Assembly: GCA_937625935.1 (NCBI GenBank)
Contig: OW569375.1
Coordinates: 1 to 64,000 of the forward strand
DNA length: 64,000 nucleotides
Source: Tetramitus jugosus
Lineage: Eukaryota > Protista > Heterolobosea
Direction: 5' to 3'
Part shown: piece after piece, positions 1 to 45,866 of the stretch
How positions within the stretch are numbered: position 1 is the stretch's first letter
Layout: every line of letters starts with the position of its first letter
Made by a program: the position numbers and the translations under genes
Notes under the pieces: generated by a model
The model's input: the letters and a program-made list of their open reading frames with translations, nothing else
Database searches by the model: none
What the model was told of the DNA's origin: nothing

Positions 1-581
1 CCCAAACCCAAACCCAAACCCAAACCCAAACCCAAACCCAAACCCAAACCCAAACCCAAACCCAAACCCAAACCCAAACCCAAACCCAAACCCAAACCCA
101 AACCCAAACCCAAACCCAAACCCAAACCCAAACCCAAACCCAAACCCAAACCCAAACCCAAACCCAAACCCAAACCCAAACCCAAACCCAAACCCAAACC
201 CAAACCCAAACCCAAACCCAAACCCAAACCCAAACCCAAACCCAAACCCAAACCCAAACCCAAACCCAAACCCAAACCCAAACCCAAACCCAAACCCAAA
301 CCCAAACCCAAACCCAAACCCAAACCCAAACCCAAACCCAAACCCAAACCCAAACCCAAACCCAAACCCAAACCCAAACCCAAACCCAAACCCAAACCCA
401 AACCCAAACCCAAACCCAAACCCAAACCCAAACCCAAACCCAAACCCAAACCCAAACCCAAACCCAAACCCAAACCCAAACCCAAACCCAAACCCAAACC
501 CAAACCCAAACCCAAACCCAAACCCAAACCCAAACCCAAACCCAAACCCAAACCCAAACCCAAACCCAAACCCAAACCCAA
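1..581. repeat. Telomeric repeat array (CCCAAA)n, i.e. TTTGGG on the G-rich strand
   Basis: 96 perfect CCCAAA units (1-576) plus a partial CCCAA, at the sequence start with the C-rich strand on +, as expected for a left chromosome end; a degenerate CCGAAA unit follows. Confidence 0.97.
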
Positions 582-627
582 CCGAAACAAGAAGAAAATA
601 ATAAAATTTAACAATCACCGTAGCATC

Positions 628-1401
628 ATGAAACTTGTCCATTTATTGTGTTGGTTCGTGTTGTTAGCTGTGATTCCATGGAATTCCATTCCACAAATTA
701 GGATCGCCCTGTGAGTTCTATTCGAGCTCAGTATGGCCCAAATATCACTTCCACTCACTTGAGTGGAGATTTAAATGAAAATGTGAAGCAATTGTTGCTT
801 CACCAAGTAAAGAGAGAGGTGATTGTTCTGGGTGAGTTTAACTCTGGTTCATTGAATGTGGGAGCTGCTTCTTTGTTGAAGAACAAGGGTCCATCGAACA
901 CAAATGATGTGTGTGTTGTGAATCCACTTTGATCCATCTCTTCAGACAAGTGATCTCCATTTGAACTATTACTCCTTCTTTTCAGTATCTTTATGGTTTC
1001 AGGTTGGTGGTGACAAGGATGAGTTTGGGCAATTTTTCGGTGCAGCAAATTTCAAGTCACCAATCAGAATTAAGCATATTTTCAAACATCTCTTCCCGCA
1101 AATATCGCATTTCAAAACAGGCTCAACATCAGATATTTTCTTGTTCTGTTTTTCCTTCCCTGACCGTACAATTGTTCGTGTGATTGGTGGTAACGGGAAT
1201 GGTTCAACCCGTGGAGGTGCGATTATTGTTGGATACTTTCTATTCTACATCAATTATAATAATAATTTCCCAGTAAAGATGTTTTCATTGTCAAGTCAGT
1301 TGAAACTAGGCAATATATTGTTGTTCATGGTTTTAGCAAAGACGAGTTGGCCATTGTGTTGGCCATGGATGCGTCTGTGGATACAGGATGTATTGTTGTA
1401 A
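628..1401 (+). pseudogene. Decayed secreted/surface protein, possibly beta-propeller repeat type
   Basis: Signal-peptide-like start [15 protein letters not shown] at 628, then broken frames with blade-like motifs (VIVLGEFNSGSLNVG..NDVCVV; QVGGDKDEFG..GSTSDIFL; VIGGNGN); multiple stops and frameshifts. Confidence 0.4.
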
Positions 1402-2448
1402 ATATTCTTTTTCCTTGATGTCAAACCATCAATTAACACGTATGGTAGGAATCATAGACTTCTCCTTCACAAAGAGGCACCTTTGTTAAACCAAATCCAC
1501 CTCAAGCTGAAACCCAGTTAATTTGTTCATCTCAGCAAGATGAATCAACAGTGAACAGAGGGGTAGTTGAGGTTCCAACTACTGTGACTCATAACCCTCC
1601 ATCTACATCTGATGGTGACACTGAGATCCGCATCCAACGCGTCCTCTGCCAAAGAGACAGAGGTTCCATCTACTGACTTGACTCGTTCATCTCACTGATG
1701 AATCAATGGTGAATGATGACTGCGAAAGAAGACAACCCGAGTCATAACAACATCAGCTGAATTAGTCACTTATTGTTTAGTTCAAAGATCTTTGCATCCT
1801 TTCGATTATACAATCATCGACTACGGATGCCGAGAGCATTGAATTTTTCACAACAAACGGATAATCTTAGGCACTACCTGTAGAAGAGAGTGACGAAGAG
1901 GATTCTGATAGCTAGAGAGTTCCTCTGGTGTCGGAGCTCTCAAGTTGTCAGTTCTTTGGTCTACGGCTCGAAAAAATAAACGCTTCGCCTTCAGATGCAA
2001 CCATCAATTGATCCAAACTTTGATTTGCGCATTCGTTCCCTTGATTCCAATCAGACATCTCGTTTCCTGAATCAAAAGAATCGATTAGTAGTTACTCAAC
2101 AACTGAATCTTCCACATCGAAACGCAAGGGGAGCTTCATCAACCAAGGGTGCATCCTTACGACAATCCCTTCCTCATTCTTTATCCCATTCACCAAAGAA
2201 TCATGACCTTTTACAATCACTTGCCAGGCCAAAGTCAGCTTTGAACCGTGTACCAAGCAATCGTATGTCTATTTCATTAGTTAAGTACCATTCCTCATAT
2301 CGCTTTGTCTCACACCCAAATCGAAAAGGAGCGATCCCACAACTGAAAGAAAAGCAAAGATCTGAAGTTGGATTAATTTATCGGTCAATGACAGATTTTA
2401 GCCCTGAGTGGTGTTTGATGGAATGTCTAACTTCCGATCTTTGCGCCA

Positions 2449-2680
2449 TCAAATCCTTCGGCCAAAATCCAAGCGTTCAAGCATGTAACTTCCACCCACA
2501 CTCGCTCCTCCACCAGAAACAATTTGAGTAAAATTTGAATTACCTCCTGGAATAGAAGTAGGCGAAATGTACATCAAGCCTCCCCAGCAAGCAATATTCT
2601 TATCCTTTATAGTACAAGTAGAATCAGGACCAGTAGCAACTTGGAGATATTTATGTGATGAACAACAGTCACAGGGAATC
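2449..2680 (-). pseudogene. RCC1/BLIP-II-like repeat fragment
   Basis: YLQVATGPDSTCTIKDKNIACWGG...FTQIVSGGG resembles RCC1-like repeats; no convincing start, isolated fragment. Confidence 0.35.
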
Positions 2681-2789
2681 GAACCTGATTCGATATTCCT
2701 TTCATCAAGTGATTGAAAACTATGCTGCATCTGAAACGAAGAATTATTGTGTGGTTCTGTTTACAAAAGCTAAAAATGAGATTTAGAGT

Positions 2790-2935
2790 ATCTGAAGAAT
2801 GAGTCATTTAAGGATGTAGTTCGGTAAAAATAAACCCACAATTTTTTCCATCGTAGGGTTAATTTCACCTCCCGCGCCTTAACGGTCTTCGCAGACCTTG
2901 TCACAGTGAGCACTCTGGATCTGAGAAACAGGTGT
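2790..2935 (-). ncRNA. Candidate Fanzor omega-RNA (scaffold at the element 3' end plus flanking guide); boundaries approximate
   Basis: Lies at the CDS 3' end and transposon right end, as for TnpB/Fanzor omega-RNAs; GGUCU-GCGA-AGACC GNRA hairpin (2897-2884) and a long hairpin (2869-2823) just inside the terminus. Confidence 0.65.
2808..2835. repeat. Right-end (3') terminal inverted repeat plus TTAA of the Fanzor element
   Basis: ttaaggatgtagttcggtaaaaataaac versus the reverse complement of the other end, ttaaggatgtagtgcgttgaacctcaac. Confidence 0.85.
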
Positions 2936-4985
2936 GTTATGACGTTCTTTGTTGTGATTAATAAGTACATCTTCGATATGATCATCACATTCATGGCAGT
3001 ATTGTCGCTTGAATGTCAATTTTTCCAACTCGGATACTGTTGAATTGTTCTTCCTTGAAAACACCAGCGGTCTTTGTCCAGTGGATAACCAGTGGTGGAA
3101 GATGGAGAGAATGTTTTTTGCTGCATTTCTGTCCCTGTCGTGAGTAACACCACATGATCTACCACTGTCAATACAGCGTTTCATGCATTGTTTTACTCCA
3201 TGAACAATCTTTCCATCTCTCTTCATATTCATCGTTTGACCGTGGCATCCATTACATTTCTGTGATGTCATGTATTCATCCACCATTATCACAATTGCCT
3301 TCTTGGACAGTGCCTTAATCAATTTGTTCTTAGGAACAGGTGCATGTCCCCTGTGAGTAGAAGAGAAACCAGCAGCACCCATCGCAATTACTACTGGCTG
3401 TCCACATGCTGGTGCTAAAAATCTTTCATGGACAACTTTATCGATGGTCTTTTGTCTCATCTGATAACTATCCCAGTTCAATTTGGTGACCTTTTTCTGG
3501 GAATAAAAATCATACAGTTCATCAGCAGCATTCAAAAATGATAGAATGTGTTCTTTGTATTCCTCGGTTGTTGCAACACCGGATGGTTTGATGTTGTTTT
3601 CCAACTTCTGAATTTTGTCTTCGCATGATGATTTGTACTTCTCCAATTTTCTCTGGTTTCTTTTGTGGTGGGACAAAAAATGATATTCTGCGCCACTCAG
3701 TCTATCGAAGTTGCCATCAGTATCCACCCAAGACAATATATTTCTGATTCCGGGGTCGCATCCATAAACACGTGAAGCCTTGGGGATGCCTGTAACACTC
3801 TTCATGTCATAGCAGTCTGGTTGAGTACAAGAAATACTTGGTTCAATCCTTCTCTTCTTTTCAAACCTTTTCTTTGTCGTCTTTTGGGGTAGTCGGTTAT
3901 TGATGTGGTTTCCTATCAATTTGTGCCTCAAACAAACAGATGCTTGGTACGAACGATAGTGTTCGTACCGGTGAAACCGGTTTTCAAACAAGAAAAATTG
4001 TAAATCAACTCTTGATTGTCACACTTGGTTTTCTTCATCAACTCTTTGGTTCCAATTTGCATGAACCTCATCTTGAACCCTGACATTGGCAGTAATGTGA
4101 ATCTCTTTCCGTCTTTCTTGTTGATGTATTGGAGCAATTCCCAGTAAAAATGGTAAACCTTGGATGGATTCTGTTTGATTGTCTCTTCTGTCAGTGGTAA
4201 GGATATTTGTAACATTTGACTGACCTCATCCAAAAGAAGAGGAATCAATCGAATAAGTTCTTCTGGTGGCAGTCTTCGAAAATCATGTACCGCTGTGACG
4301 TACATAATTTTCCTTGCAATGTATTCAACCACTCTTCTTCTTTCACCAGAAAGAATTGTAGAACTCTCACCAAGCAATTCATTCACTCTCATTCTCAGAT
4401 ATCTTCTCAGCCTTGCTTCGAAGGTGAAGACCAATGAATTTTCAATAGCAGTAGCAAACTCCTTTGCCAAGTAGTTCATGGTGATTGAATAACCACTCAG
4501 CGGTATCCTTAATTCCTTAGCTATGTCCAGTGATTTGACCCACTCTGGAATTTTCTCAATGTTTCTCTTCCATTCCTTACTCTCTTTCGAAAAGAGCAAA
4601 GAAGTAACCTTTTGCAACATGTTTTGGTCCATCACATCCATTGATAAATCATCTGTCAAGCACCTGAGTATATGAAAGTTGAGAAACCTCCCAAAATGAC
4701 CAGCCGTTCTTGTCATTTGTTTCACCCTTGCTCCAATTTCACCAATGAGTTTAGGCTGTTTGGACAAGAGTCTCTTCAGACCAACTTTGACTACGTAATA
4801 ATCAGAGTATTGTTTTTTTGTCAACAACTGTCCTCTTTCTCTTTCCGGACTTGGAAACACCCTTGGGCATTCGTTGTATGTTTTTTGAAAGTTTTGTTGT
4901 TTTGGTTTTTGGTTGGTTTGTGTTTTTTGAAAAAAATTTATACGTTTGCTTCTATTTATACGTTGAGGTTCAACGCACTACATCC
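2812..4985 (-). mobile_element. Non-autonomous TIR DNA transposon carrying a Fanzor gene, flanked by TTAA
   Basis: TTAA(2808-2811)+GGATGTAGT(2812-2820) at one end and ACTACATCC(4977-4985)+TTAA(4986-4989) at the other form a perfect 13-bp inverted repeat including TTAA, with imperfect similarity extending to about 28 bp; the ends tightly bracket the Fanzor CDS; no transposase inside. Confidence 0.88.
2879..4870 (-). pseudogene. Fanzor (TnpB-family RNA-guided RuvC endonuclease, Fanzor1-like), two frameshifts
   Basis: RuvC-I YGCDPGIRN, GAAGF..RGHAPVP, repositioned RuvC-II VDEYMTSQKC, zinc ribbon CNGC...CMKRC, RuvC-III HDRDRNAAKNI, C-terminal RPLVFSR; N-half (3928-4860) has VVKVGLKRLL and RFTLLPM; ATG at 4870 (MPKGVSKSGKRER); frameshifts at the A7 run 4813-4819 and at about 3945-3990. 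Confidence 0.92.
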
Positions 4986-4989
4986 TTAA
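4962..4989. repeat. Left-end (5') terminal inverted repeat plus TTAA of the Fanzor element
   Basis: Reverse complement matches 2808-2835; overlaps a small hairpin cgttga-ggt-tcaacg (4961-4975); the direct repeat atttatacgtt lies at 4936-4946 and 4954-4964. Confidence 0.85.
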
Positions 4990-5229
4990 TGTTGTGATTT
5001 GTGGTTGCACACTAAATGCTATTGTGCTCTTTGGAAGACAAGGCCGAGCAACCAGAAACAACAGAATTGACCAAGCATTGCCAAGAAGAGTGTTTTGAAG
5101 ACGATGGCAACAAAAATTTTACAAAATGACATATGACACACCGACGCACCTCACTGATGGTAGTCCCGGAGAGTCTTCATTCACCTAGCAACTCTTATCT
5201 TGTTCATTTCGCATAAACAACTACAAGGT

Positions 5230-6769
5230 TCATTGTGAATGTCCTTCATCGAAGAATGAAGTAAGAGCATCATACATATCACTCGACTTCAATTTGGTCG
5301 CAATCTCCTGAAAATTATACCTGTCATAGTCATGCCAGAAGTTGTAGGATTGCCGGAATCGTTCTTCATCAGTTCCAGTAAATTGATAGACAGACTTGTC
5401 ATCATCTTTTAAAAAACAGAATGTTTTCAATAGTGATTCACAATCATACACAGCCTTGTACTCTCGTAAACTGATCGTTCGATTTTGCTTCTCTCTCAGG
5501 TAGTCATTCGCACAAAAGGTAATAGTTCCCGCAAACACACATTCTTCATTCAATTTGTGAGCAAAACCCCAGTCAATCAAAACAGGACGTCCAATACTGT
5601 CTAATAAAATATTATCTGGTCTTATATCTCTATGACCAAAAGAAAGTGAGTGCAGTTTCTTCAATAGGTCAATTAATATCAAGCCTTTTTCCTTCGTAAG
5701 TACCTCAAGTGGTGCCAGTATCCCCAATGTGATGTATCCTCGAGAGTGATGAATCATTTTGGGAATATTTGCACTATGCTCCCCTAGATGAGCATGCAGA
5801 TGTTCGAGGATGCGAGCCTCATTTTCAAAACAGGCTAAGAATTTTTCTTCTTGACATACCTTCACTGCTTGGTTGTCACGGTTCTGAAAAACACAAGATG
5901 TCAAACCTTCTCCTAAGAATTTTCTAAGGGCCATACTTTCATTTGGTTCGATGATTGCATTTATAGAATCTAACTCGTCAGACTTCATGTTCAATAGTCC
6001 TGACAACATATCTAGACCAATAGTGCTCTGTGATCCATCAGTTGGAGCAAAGAGTAGGGATTTTGTTCGTGTAATTTGTATAGTTCTCCCATCCATGTTT
6101 CTATCTGCTCTCAAGAGGATAATCGAATTGTAATTGGATAAAAATCCATAGATTGCGTACCTTCTCGTCTGATGTAGTTCTAGGATCGTTCGCATATAGA
6201 AGGTTATTTGTCCAAGCATTGTGTCTGTTTCAATATTGACATGAGGTGCTTTGACATCACCTACACCGATCACAATCTTCGACAGTAATGGACCGATATT
6301 CTTGTCCTTCAAGTCAATTTCAAATTTTCTCAGAGTAATTGCAAAATCCGGTGATAATAGCTGTTCCTCCTCGCCAGTTTTTGGAGTGCGTGTCATGAAC
6401 TTTGAGAGAGGAATCAACTTCAAGCACTTTAAAGATTTCCCCAAATGTTTCTTGAACAAACACCTCATTGGTGCTGGTTTGAGAAGGAAAGTCATAGTTC
6501 AAAGTTTTTGGTTTCCAAAGGCTCCCAGGAAGGACGATAGTCTCGAAGGGTTTGATCCTACTATAATATGATGCATAAGTGGTTGAATCCAACTTGAATT
6601 TTTTGTTGTCACTCTGAAATTCTAGTTCTGCTCTCCTGGTCTTTTGTCGTTCTACAATATCAATTTGTTTTGTTTTCTCCTGTTCTCGTTTTGTTTTCTC
6701 CCGTTCACTGACGATTGTTACAATCGTTGAAGCTAAAACTTGGACGATGTCATCGTTTTGCTGTTCCAT
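5230..6769 (-). pseudogene. Crinkler/CR-effector-like protein: PD-(D/E)xK REase-like domain + protein kinase, one frameshift
   Basis: ATG 6769 (MEQQNDD), coiled coil, HDTH, then SPDFAI...VGDVK...LGQITFY...YGFLSN, then kinase LGEGLTSCVF, AVK, HRDIRPDN, LIDWGFA; the two ORFs join if one A is removed from the A5 run at 6378-6382 (about 512 aa). Confidence 0.75.
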
Positions 6770-6946
6770 TATTGATTGTTTTTTTGTTGAATGTTTGTTG
6801 GTCTCAACCGCAAAAAATCGCAAAAGGTTTCGCGAAATTGTTACAATCGGATAAAACTTCAGGAAGGAAAATCACTGGAATAACGACTGGCCATTGGAAA
6901 GGAAAAGAAGGAAAAGCAGGTTTTCTTCAGAAAGTACTTTATGAAT

Positions 6947-7128
6947 TTACAACTTGATGCTCTTGTATCTCTCGTCATCAATTGCCTCTCTCAAGATACC
7001 AAAAGGTGAGAAGTCTTCTCCGTTGATCACAGCCTTAAGCAGGGCTGGAGAGAAGCCAGCCAACATTGCAACACCTTGCTCGTTAGACTTGGCGGCAAAG
7101 TCACGCACATTCCAGTACGATCTGAGCA
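6947..7128 (-). pseudogene. C-terminal fragment of a DUF2828-like (vWA-fold) protein
   Basis: QIV-YWNVR...GVAMLAGFSPALLKAV...SPFGILREAIDDERY resembles the DUF2828 C-terminal pattern as I recall it; the 5' part is missing. Confidence 0.5.
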
Positions 7129-7207
7129 GATGAATCACCACGAGCCAAAACACCGAGATGAATCCTCTTCACAAAAAACCGACAACTAAAAAGAAGACAA
7201 AACAACC

Positions 7208-8481
7208 ATGAGAAGGACAACCAATCCCCATGAAAGCAATGGATATCTTGTCATGAATGACATGGCCAATAATCACATGAATAAGATTTTTTGGGCACTG
7301 AGTCTAGATTCATGGTCCAAGATCCTAGAGTTTTTGGACACCAGAGAATGGATGCAGTTGAGTTACACTTGCAAAGGGTTCAATCAATTCAAGTACAGCA
7401 AACAATGCCTGTTCAACAAGCGAAGAACGTTGAAACGTGATTTATCGTCTCGAAAGATTGAACACTTCTTTGCACTGGGAAAAGGAACATTGCTCAATGT
7501 GAGTAATGTGCACTTTCAATATTTAGAAGGTATTCATACGCTCGATATGAGTCATTGCAATCAAAAAACGATTTCAGATGAAGCATTTAAACACTTGACA
7601 GGTATTCAATCACTCGATATTAGTTTATGCTTTCAAATCACAGACAACGCGTTTTCTCATTTGAAAGGCATTCATACACTTTTGATGGCTTATTGTAATC
7701 ACTCAACGATCACAAATGAGGCGTTTAAACACTTGAAAGGTATTCACACACTTAATATGGTTGGTGTCCGGCAAGCAACAATTACAGACGATGCCCTTTC
7801 GTATCTTGAAGGCATTCACTCTCTCAATATGAGTCATTGTACTCAAATCACAGACAAAGCCTTTTCTTACTTGAAAGGCATTCATACACTCAACATGATT
7901 CGTTGTCGTCAAGAAACCATTACAGATGAGGCTTTTTCACATCTAGAAGGCATTCACACACTAGATATGACCAATTGCAACCAAAATACGATCACAGATG
8001 AAGCATTCAAGCACTTGAAAGGTATTCATACACTTACTATGGCCTATTGCAATCAACCAACAATTACCGATTGGGCTTTTTCTCATTTGGAAGGCATTCA
8101 TACACTCAATATGACTCTCTGCCAGCAAAAAACTATCACAGATGAAGCTTTTTCACATCTTGAAGGAATTCATACTCTGATTATTCTCCATTGTACATGA
8201 GTGGTTGTGATCAAGAATCAATCACAGATCGTGCATTCTCTCATTTGAAAGGCATTCACACACTTTCTATGCTTTGTTGTACTCAAACAACAATCACAGA
8301 CAGTGCATTCTCCTATTTGAACGGGATTCATACACTGGATATGAGACATTGTAATCAACAATATATCACCAACAAAGCAGTTTCAAATTTGAATCCACGT
8401 GATATCAGAAAAGATCAAACATTCATCGAAAATGTGACCTTATCTCTAAAAAAGTTAATGAATCGAATATTCGGGAAATAG
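7208..8481 (+). pseudogene. F-box + leucine-rich repeat protein with a frameshift at about 8190
   Basis: F-box-like LSLDSWSKILEFLDTREWMQLSYTCK; about 11 repeats of 24/26 aa (ITDEAFSHLEGIHTLxMxxCxQ); repeats continue in another frame at 8191-8481, as expected from a partial-repeat deletion. Confidence 0.8.
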
Positions 8482-44682: not shown

Positions 44683-44921
44683 AGTCATGTTTACTTTTTG
44701 CTTATTCTTATAAGTTATTTGCCTCTTTATTCTTGAAAATATTAGATTTTGCATATCTTTTGGCAAACTCATGAACTCATAACAGATTCCCCACTGACCT
44801 TTTTCCTTGGTTGATCATCCGGTAGTTATACACCTTTGTTAACTACCAGAAATCATCAACAACATGCTGCTGTTGATGAATCACACACAAACACAGAGAA
44901 TCATTCACATAGCCAATCCAT

Positions 44922-45866
44922 CTAACTCGTCAGCGAATCCCTGCACAAATCATGAACCATCCTTAATCGATCTCTCTTCTCCTCTTCGTACTCGTAAACA
45001 TCTCGATCCACTTTTGTCTTCTCATAATGAGTCATCATGACCGATTTGCAACACTCCAACGCCTTCAACGAATCATACAATGACTTTACATACAACTGTG
45101 TCTCCTCATAACACAAACTCCGATTGAAATATCCGTGCGTGTATTCTCCGCCTCTCAACTCAATCGCCCGAGTGAAATCCCGAATGGCCTCCTCATGCCG
45201 ATTCGTTCGATAATAAATACTGCCACGATTATTGTGCGCCTGAACATCACAATTGTCCAACCGTATCACTGCAGAGTAATCTTCGAGTGCCAACTTGAAT
45301 TTTCCAGCAGAGACAAGTGCAACACCTCGATTATAGTATGCAAGAGCATATGTCGGGTCAATCTCAATGGCCATTCCATAATCTTGCAATGCATTCTCCA
45401 ATTGAGACAACATTCGATGTCTCAATGCTCGATTATTGAACACGAGAGCAGCCAACTTTGATCGATCAAGTGACATTTGAGTCAATTGATTGAGAATCAA
45501 TGTGAATCGATCGACTATAAACTGATCATTCGATTCCAAAGAGGATGATGAAGAAGATGACGATGGTCGAATCAAGTACAATTGACCAAATTCCAATAGG
45601 AGCATTTTGAGAGGAAAAAGTGAAAAATGATCATGTTTTTTGGCTCGTTCGAAATCATGAATCATTAATTGTGTTTGATCGGGTGGTAATTGAGCCATTG
45701 TACTCAGTTTTGTTCGGTTGAGCCGGTGAAGGTTCGTTGATGCGTCATTGACTTGATAAAGTGCGTTGAAAAAGGGTTGGGAGTGAGGTGATTGGAAGAT
45801 GAATTGGTGGTGGCGTTCTGGTAGTGGTGATGATAGTGATTGTCGTATGGAAGTCATGTATGACAT
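44922..45866 (-). CDS. TPR-repeat protein
   Basis: AYYNRGVAL, AHNNRGSIY and GYFNRSLCY repeats; start codon uncertain. Confidence 0.85.
   Translation of the reverse strand: MSYMTSIRQSLSSPLPERHHQFIFQSPHSQPFFNALYQVNDASTNLHRLNRTKLSTMAQLPPDQTQLMIHDFERAKKHDHFSLFPLKMLLLEFGQLYLIRPSSSSSSSSLESNDQFIVDRFTLILNQLTQMSLDRSKLAALVFNNRALRHRMLSQLENALQDYGMAIEIDPTYALAYYNRGVALVSAGKFKLALEDYSAVIRLDNCDVQAHNNRGSIYYRTNRHEEAIRDFTRAIELRGGEYTHGYFNRSLCYEETQLYVKSLYDSLKALECCKSVMMTHYEKTKVDRDVYEYEEEKRDRLRMVHDLCRDSLTS

What the first reader, a model, noticed from the sequence alone, without database searches (positions are those of the whole stretch)
2790..2935. Candidate omega-RNA scaffold, with predicted guide and TAM
Seen on the minus strand: a GNRA-capped hairpin GGUCU-GCGA-AGACC (2897-2884) just before the stop codon, then a long hairpin GGUGAAA-UU-AACCCUACGAU-ggaaaaa-AUUGUGGGUU-UAU-UUUUACC (2869-2823). 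Its G-U wobble pairs work on this strand but not on the other, as expected for a functional RNA. It ends 11 nt from the terminus. Inference by analogy to TnpB/Fanzor: the guide is the flank beyond the end, (UUAA)AUGACUCAUUCUUCAG, and the TAM is the 5' flank ending ...ATTAA. The target would be the reconstructed empty site CACAACA-TTAA-ATGACTCATTC.
Basis: partly seen in the sequence, partly recalled or inferred. Interest (0 to 1): 0.78.

Follow-up and report, generated by a model that had tools for sequence, protein, structure and literature searches.

The report
Guide-RNA end of broken Fanzor transposon
The folded tail of a small jumping gene near a chromosome tip of a single-celled eukaryote is likely the scaffold of the guide RNA for its DNA-cutting Fanzor enzyme, but this copy's enzyme gene is broken twice and the site it would cut survives unchanged in the same samples, so this copy is probably switched off.

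Summary
The hairpins are real and lie at the right end of a 2,174-bp element (2812-4985, minus strand) with short inverted ends, TTAA on both sides and a Fanzor1 gene. The resulting 90-nt fold is laid out like published Fanzor1 omega-RNAs (z -4.2 with chosen bounds; matched by 11 of 14,070 sliding windows). The 'reconstructed' empty site exists: contigs from three studies hold it with one TTAA. So guide = flank from 2807 down and TAM = TTAA are sound predictions, with TTAA in the scaffold, not the guide. No small RNA was seen (only contigs were available) and no real covariation test was possible. Against activity: the gene has two frameshifts, one removing the TDG motif, and no run that covers them shows an indel; the empty allele keeps TAM plus 26 matching bases. 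The ends (TTAA, GG..CC) fit Kolobok, a host not listed for Fanzors in my searches; no transposase was seen. The scan had not reported this on other DNA. Verdict: likely omega-RNA of a probably dead Fanzor1 copy.

The parts
2812..4985 (-). Non-autonomous DNA transposon, 2,174 bp, carrying only a Fanzor1 gene; GG...CC termini
   Evidence: Inverted ends (I1); contigs of the empty site join 2811 to the left flank with one TTAA; no transposase ORF inside
2808..2811 (.). Right TTAA target-site duplication; predicted last 4 nt of the scaffold
   Evidence: Sequence; single TTAA in the empty allele; pairs 2882-2879 with 2808-2811 at p 0.48-0.72
2812..2823 (-). Right terminal inverted repeat core (11 of 12 match the left end)
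   Evidence: 15 of 16 with the TTAA
2823..2869 (-). Long hairpin (18 pairs, 3 G-U, 7-nt loop), inner part of the predicted second stem
2877..2882 (-).
   Evidence: p 0.48-0.72; such a 6-mer match arises at 2.4% of positions by chance (1,516 of 63,100)
2884..2897 (-). First stem-loop, 5 bp with a GCGA tetraloop; predicted 5' part of the scaffold
2793..2807 (-). Predicted 14-15 nt guide (host flank beyond the TTAA)
   Evidence: Inference from PMC10432273 section 7, PMC10711439, PMC13565253 section 20; the matching target is in the empty allele
2879..3946 (-). Fanzor1 gene, RuvC/zinc-finger half; catalytic D, E, D present
   Evidence: PF07282 E 1.4e-9; best solved hit SpuFz1 E 4.4e-7; D79, E239, D287 invariant in 7 of 7 rows
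3946..3969 (-). Second frameshift: about 10 nt short of relatives across the TDG motif, inside a perfect 9-bp inverted repeat (3969-3961 / 3954-3946)
   Evidence: the repeat is read from the sequence; TDG in 74 of 82 full-length relatives
3947..4812 (-). Fanzor1 gene, REC/WED part, in another frame
   Evidence: 35-38% to intact relatives; model pLDDT 85; top 7 fold matches are SpuFz, PpFz, GtFz
4813..4870 (-). Likely true start (ATG 4870) and first frameshift at an A7 run (4819-4813); this frame stops after 22 codons
   Evidence: 79% to residues 1-19 of P0162 in a frame different from the middle part
4974..4985 (-). Left terminal inverted repeat core
4986..4989 (.). Left TTAA duplication; the predicted TAM
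   Evidence: Sequence; inference from PMC13565253 section 20

Best explanation
The stretch 2897-2808 is likely the omega-RNA scaffold of a Fanzor1 carried by a TTAA-flanked transposon whose gene in this copy is broken by two frameshifts, so it probably no longer cuts. In the working ancestor a transcript would run through the right end into the flank and be trimmed to about 90 nt of scaffold (first stem-loop, then a long stem closing on the terminus and the TTAA) plus a 14-15 nt guide. The Fanzor would read TTAA as TAM at a site lacking the element and cut it, and repair from a filled chromosome would copy the element back. Shown: ends, duplication, empty allele, protein family, both breaks, predicted fold. 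Inferred: the RNA, guide start, TAM, cutting, homing, and loss of activity.
For: Position and layout match published Fanzor1 RNAs: first stem-loop, terminal stem ending at the duplication, then flank (by eye on the table; text). The 90-nt fold is among the best of the contig and the best of the element, on the coding strand only. All 3 variants of the scaffold region listed for run X9 are tolerated: a change and an insertion in the loop, and A-U to G-U at 2860. A multi-copy sister end (depth 477 against 84 in X2; 16 against 2-3 in X16) shares 2808-2842 with 4 differences and then diverges. By eye its different 5' arm can still pair down to the terminal CC (19 pairs from 24 nt if its 3' arm were ours). 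Protein. Breaks; no indel listed near either break in the 4 of 4 runs laid or in L020. Intact target: the empty allele keeps TTAA plus 26 matching bases in X1, X2 and X9 beside the filled allele.
Against: No small RNA: all 8 runs laid were contigs and 2 of 8 gave nothing. No covariation test: the right ends of 17 related loci examined were too distant or cut short. No Rfam match. The first stem has 5 pairs, against 7 in three solved Fanzor1 RNAs; 7 needs a bulge and competes with the closing stem. The closing stem is only p 0.5-0.7. The three X9 variants are few and one is a homopolymer slip. The 4 differing letters of the sister end were not displayed, so its pairing is uncertain. Homing has not been shown for any Fanzor in the review read.
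Confidence: 0.7

Rival explanations
1. The scaffold is still used in trans: this copy and the gene-less sister ends make guide RNAs for an intact, more diverged Fanzor1 elsewhere in the genome, like the ghost elements of Spizellomyces.
For: Ghost loci with working RNAs exist (PMC10432273). Sister ends are multi-copy. An RNA-library contig runs from 4911 through the right end to 2744 (X5). Intact relatives of 648-743 aa exist in metagenomes.
Against: No second copy at 85% or more over the gene in X1. The perfect target survives in samples of two studies that also hold the filled allele. The RNA contig may be DNA. No genome was held, so a distant intact copy was not looked for.
Confidence: 0.13
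2. The hairpins are DNA features of a transposon end (subterminal inverted repeats for the transposase) or a transcript 3'-end signal, with no guide function.
For: The 5' arm of the closing stem is an inner copy of the element's terminal six bases. The long hairpin is followed by a T run and scores as terminator-like (1 found, 0.3 expected). The sister end keeps the hairpin although it may carry no Fanzor.
Against: With DNA energies the fold is weak and nearly strand-neutral (-11.9 against -9.4); as RNA it is strongly strand-biased. The left end has no such structure. The layout fits known omega-RNAs.
Confidence: 0.12
3. The gene is recoded (frameshifting or splicing) and this copy is active.
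For: Both breaks are shared by all covering runs; catalytic residues are intact; one break is at an A7 run and the other in a hairpin.
Against: The TDG codons are missing, not merely out of frame, so no shift or splice supplies them. No joint in the gene in RNA run X5. No canonical slippery heptamer seen by eye. The target is intact.
Confidence: 0.03

Closest known systems
Spu-1 Fanzor1 element of Spizellomyces punctatus (SpuFz1; PMC10432273, sections 7 and 11 and supplement file 5 read)
   Same: About 2.1-kb single-gene element with inverted ends and no transposase; scaffold across the right end; guide in the flank; multi-copy sister ends; best sequence and fold match of the protein.
   Different: TAM CATA, 30-nt repeats and a 75-nt scaffold there. 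Here TTAA, a 12-nt repeat core, about 90 nt predicted, low protein identity (17-19% in the fold match) and a broken gene.
GtFz1 of Guillardia theta (PMC10432273 passages; PMC11423790 passages and section 5)
   Same: TAM TTAA(N); RNA overlaps the end of the gene; its listed RNA also has a terminal stem ending in UAA before the flank (by eye).
   Different: About 150-nt RNA with four stems; the paper found no inverted repeats at its loci; a weaker fold match (E 9e-3).
Kolobok DNA transposons (PMC9587614, passages)
   Same: TTAA duplication, 5'-RR..YY-3' termini, short inverted repeats; the paper lists Naegleria among hosts.
   Different: No DDD/E transposase or KolX seen here; Fanzor cargo is not listed for Kolobok in the sources read.
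piggyBac (recalled termini CC..GG; contrast stated in PMC9587614)
   Same: TTAA duplication; listed as a Fanzor host in PMC13565253.
   Different: This element starts with GG on both strands.

Membership tests
Fanzor1 protein | RuvC D-E-D with the glutamate just before the zinc finger | tested here: met
   D79, E239, D287; E is followed by C246 and C249
Fanzor1 protein | Large REC/WED N-terminal half like solved Fanzor1s | tested here: met
   Top 7 fold matches are SpuFz, PpFz, GtFz
Fanzor1 protein | TDG motif in WED (PMC10711439) | tested here: not met
   Lost at the second break; present in 74 of 82 full-length relatives. This marks decay of the copy, not another family
Fanzor1 protein | One intact reading frame | tested here: not met
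   Three segments in two frames, stop after 22 codons
Fanzor1 omega-RNA | Structured scaffold across the right end, with repeat and duplication in a terminal stem | tested here: met
   Predicted fold only
Fanzor1 omega-RNA | First stem-loop of 7 pairs (PMC11423790) | tested here: inconclusive
   5 pairs; 7 only with a bulge (and sequence)
Fanzor1 omega-RNA | Scaffold conserved across copies, flank variable | tested here: inconclusive
   The multi-copy sister piece starts exactly at 2808 in X2, as variable flanks would give; other flanks and the 4 differing letters were not displayed; 3 of 3 X9 variants tolerated
Fanzor1 omega-RNA | Small RNA ending 14-15 nt beyond the duplication and bound by the protein | not testable with these tools
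   Only contigs were served
Fanzor1 omega-RNA | TAM equals the 5' duplication; cleavage of the empty site | not testable with these tools
   Inferred
Kolobok | TTAA target-site duplication | tested here: met
   Filled allele has two, empty allele one. A TA duplication with one more terminal base at a TTAA site gives the same letters and cannot be excluded
Kolobok | 5'-RR..YY-3' termini with short inverted repeats | tested here: met
   GG..CC
Kolobok | Kolobok-type DDD/E transposase with the same ends | not testable with these tools
   None in the element; no transposase family among the 29 window proteins scanned; genome not held
piggyBac | YY..RR termini (recalled) | tested here: not met
   Termini are GG..CC

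The most novel reading that the evidence does not exclude
This is a Fanzor1 captured by the Kolobok superfamily, a host not yet listed for Fanzors: a family of TTAA-specific elements whose multi-copy sister ends keep the omega-RNA hairpin with a different sequence, and which has left a natural filled/empty pair of alleles with the target intact, ready for a direct test of Fanzor homing in a eukaryote.
Probability: 0.4. Interest if true: 0.6.

Novelty: new member of a known kind. Interest (0 to 1): 0.4.

Why it matters
The anatomy is that of a known system, and a TTAA TAM is already known from GtFz1. Two things add value. First, the role of Fanzors in their hosts is open: the review read lists cutting and refilling of empty sites for TnpB and IscB only. 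A sample holding a filled allele and an empty allele with a perfect target is a ready substrate for that test once an intact relative is supplied. Second, if the ends are Kolobok's, the list of transposons that captured Fanzor1 grows by one superfamily, and the intact relatives found here (P0004, P0160-P0162) are untested compact nucleases.

Tried and rejected
No genome was held, so copies could not be pulled out. Viral contigs: no relative with the single protein; 62 distant loci with the alignment; end-motif scans gave 19 chance hits and then 0. Prokaryote genomes: nothing and 9 chance hits. Metagenomes: 15 loci, of which L020 is the same insertion with the same flank and L021 (44%) ends 98 nt after its stop. 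Of the 77 protein-found loci I read the downstream DNA of 17 plus L020; none of the 17 aligned to this end, and a BLAST of both ends against all 105 loci found only L020 and the seed matches. So no covariance model was built. A search for longer proteins with the middle ORF found none of 2,352 candidates, a weak negative since P0004 is such a protein. Rfam: no match. Runs X15 and X18 laid nothing on the right end, which shows no absence. A TTAAGGATG at 44958 lies inside a TPR gene and is chance. The 147-bp deletion in the empty allele as a scar of cutting: not accepted, because 26 target bases remain while SpuFz1 and GtFz1 cut 14-21 bases from the TAM, and X16's empty site lacks it. The host's lineage: the atlas gave only 'eukaryote'. 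The sister end was paired by eye and not folded by a program.

Full report
Setting. The window starts with about 580 bases of CCCAAA telomere repeat and carries ordinary eukaryotic genes. An earlier unreviewed note on this genome calls the host a probable amoeba of the Naegleria group; my own check gave only 'eukaryote'. No genome was held.

Observation. The 90 nt from 2897 to 2808 give -31.5 kcal/mol, z -4.2, 0 of 300 shuffles, against -19.9 on the other strand. Since I chose those bounds, I ran a control: 11 of 14,070 sliding windows fold as well after GC correction, and grid windows over this end are the top 2 of 468 in the element. The fold includes a third stem, 2882-2877 with 2813-2808 (p 0.48-0.72), that closes on the terminal CC and the TTAA; such a 6-mer match occurs by chance at 2.4% of positions.

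The element. The longest inverted repeat in 600-7000 joins 2808-2835 to 4962-4989. The empty site is not only reconstructed: contigs of X1 and X9 jump from 2811 into the left flank with one TTAA (2 of 4 runs), as do X2 and X16 (2 of 4 runs, the other two laid nothing). X1 and X2 are one sample and may be this window's source, so the count is three studies. In X1 the depths of filled (46.7) and empty (27.3) pieces add up to about that of the shared flank (70.7), as for alleles or paralogous chromosome ends in one sample. A short piece starting exactly at 2808 has depth 477 in X2 against 84 for this copy, differs at 4 of 35 letters and diverges after 2842; a like piece exists for the left end in X5 (depth 211 against 34). 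So there is a multi-copy sister family with the same termini, and TTAA appears to be shared by its copies. Depth is a rough measure and the other flanks were not displayed.

The protein. The downstream ORF matches PF07282 and best SpuFz1 among solved structures, with the three catalytic residues invariant in 7 of 7 rows. The middle ORF folds like the front half of SpuFz, PpFz and GtFz. The intact relative P0004 matches SpuFz1 over residues 188-668. But relatives map to three segments: a start at 4870 that stops after 22 codons, a middle part in another frame after an A7 run, and the RuvC half back in the first frame. The second break drops about 10 nt across the TDG motif, which 74 of 82 full-length relatives keep and which PMC10711439 calls characteristic of Fanzor1 (passages). 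No indel near either break is listed for the 4 runs or for L020, so they are not assembly errors.

Is it an omega-RNA? Published Fanzor1 RNAs span the right end, include the repeat and the duplication in the scaffold and run 14-15 nt into the flank (PMC10432273 section 7; PMC10711439 passages; PMC13565253 section 20). By eye, the SpuFz1 and GtFz1 RNAs in supplement file 5 of PMC10432273 have the same order: first stem-loop, a stem ending at the duplication, then flank. That puts the guide start at 2807 and makes TTAA the TAM, as for GtFz1 (TTAAN). Natural variation is scarce but fits: 3 of 3 scaffold variants in X9 keep the fold. The 30 letters shown for the sister end differ from ours yet could pair, by eye, with the shared 3' arm down to the terminal CC; its 4 other differences were not shown. 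Against: no small RNA could be seen, the first stem has 5 pairs and not 7 (PMC11423790 section 5), Rfam has no match, and related loci were too distant to align. An RNA-library contig covers 4911-2744 (X5), L020 starts at 4914, and TATAAA boxes lie at 4960 and 4942: a weak hint of a transcript that reads through the right end.

Is it working? Probably not in this copy. The gene is broken twice, no second copy at 85% or more covers the gene in X1, and the empty allele keeps TTAA plus 26 perfectly matching bases in samples that also hold the filled allele. An active nuclease with this guide would be expected to convert or mutate that site (inference). Use in trans by a distant intact Fanzor remains open.

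Which transposon? TTAA with RR..YY termini is the stated signature of Kolobok, in contrast to piggyBac (PMC9587614 passages). A search for Fanzor and Kolobok found one paper, whose list of Fanzor hosts lacks Kolobok; PMC10530073 has no 'Kolobok' or 'TTAA' in its main text; the passages seen of PMC3627910 name Mariner, Helitron, IS4-like, Sola2, MuDR and others. Further searches: (listings only, apart from the papers named). Repbase, most subscription papers, the supplement of PMC10530073 and file 2 of PMC10432273 were not seen and may bear on this. No transposase was found, and a TA duplication with one more terminal base gives the same letters; Sola3 also targets TTAA (recalled, not checked). 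I put Kolobok near one in two.

Verdict. A real and well-placed candidate scaffold of a known kind, attached to a decayed Fanzor1. Look-ups of earlier scan findings by this DNA, by words and by P0004 found nothing. Interest 0.4.

Noticed in passing
window 2635-2781: The empty allele of X1, X2 and X9 lacks 147 bp starting 26 nt beyond the TTAA, with 3 other letters in their place; X16's empty site does not. Near, but outside, where known Fanzor1s cut.
   Followed up: partly
window 2808-2842 and 4950-4987: Multi-copy sister elements share only the terminal 35-38 bp with this one and diverge inward; they could be gene-less ghosts, MITEs or the autonomous transposon.
   Followed up: partly
window 3946-3969: The second frameshift sits in a perfect 9-bp inverted repeat with a 6-nt loop, which suggests a template-switch or hairpin-driven deletion.
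   Followed up: partly
window 2879-2960: The gene runs 85 codons past the last RuvC motif against 45-60 in close relatives, so its overlap with the first hairpin may come from a lost stop; X16 has a copy with a 6-nt gap at 3024.
   Followed up: partly
window 4959-4975: Small hairpin inside the left end, next to two TATAAA boxes (4960, 4942).
   Followed up: no
window 3458-3760: X9 holds a variant with a 301-bp internal deletion of the Fanzor gene (depth 5.8).
   Followed up: no
L020:3027-4516 against window 1886: The same insertion continues into different DNA below window 1886 (an open frame of over 500 codons), so the chromosome tip differs between isolates; window 1870-1977 on the plus strand is the best-folding stretch of the contig.
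   Followed up: no
window 44791-44908: Strong minus-strand fold (-4.2 SD) just after the stop of a TPR gene.
   Followed up: no
window 1-7200: Subtelomeric region with paralogous variants in the runs (2419-2650), a kinase gene (5230-6495) and an F-box/LRR gene (7208-8200) beside the element.
   Followed up: no
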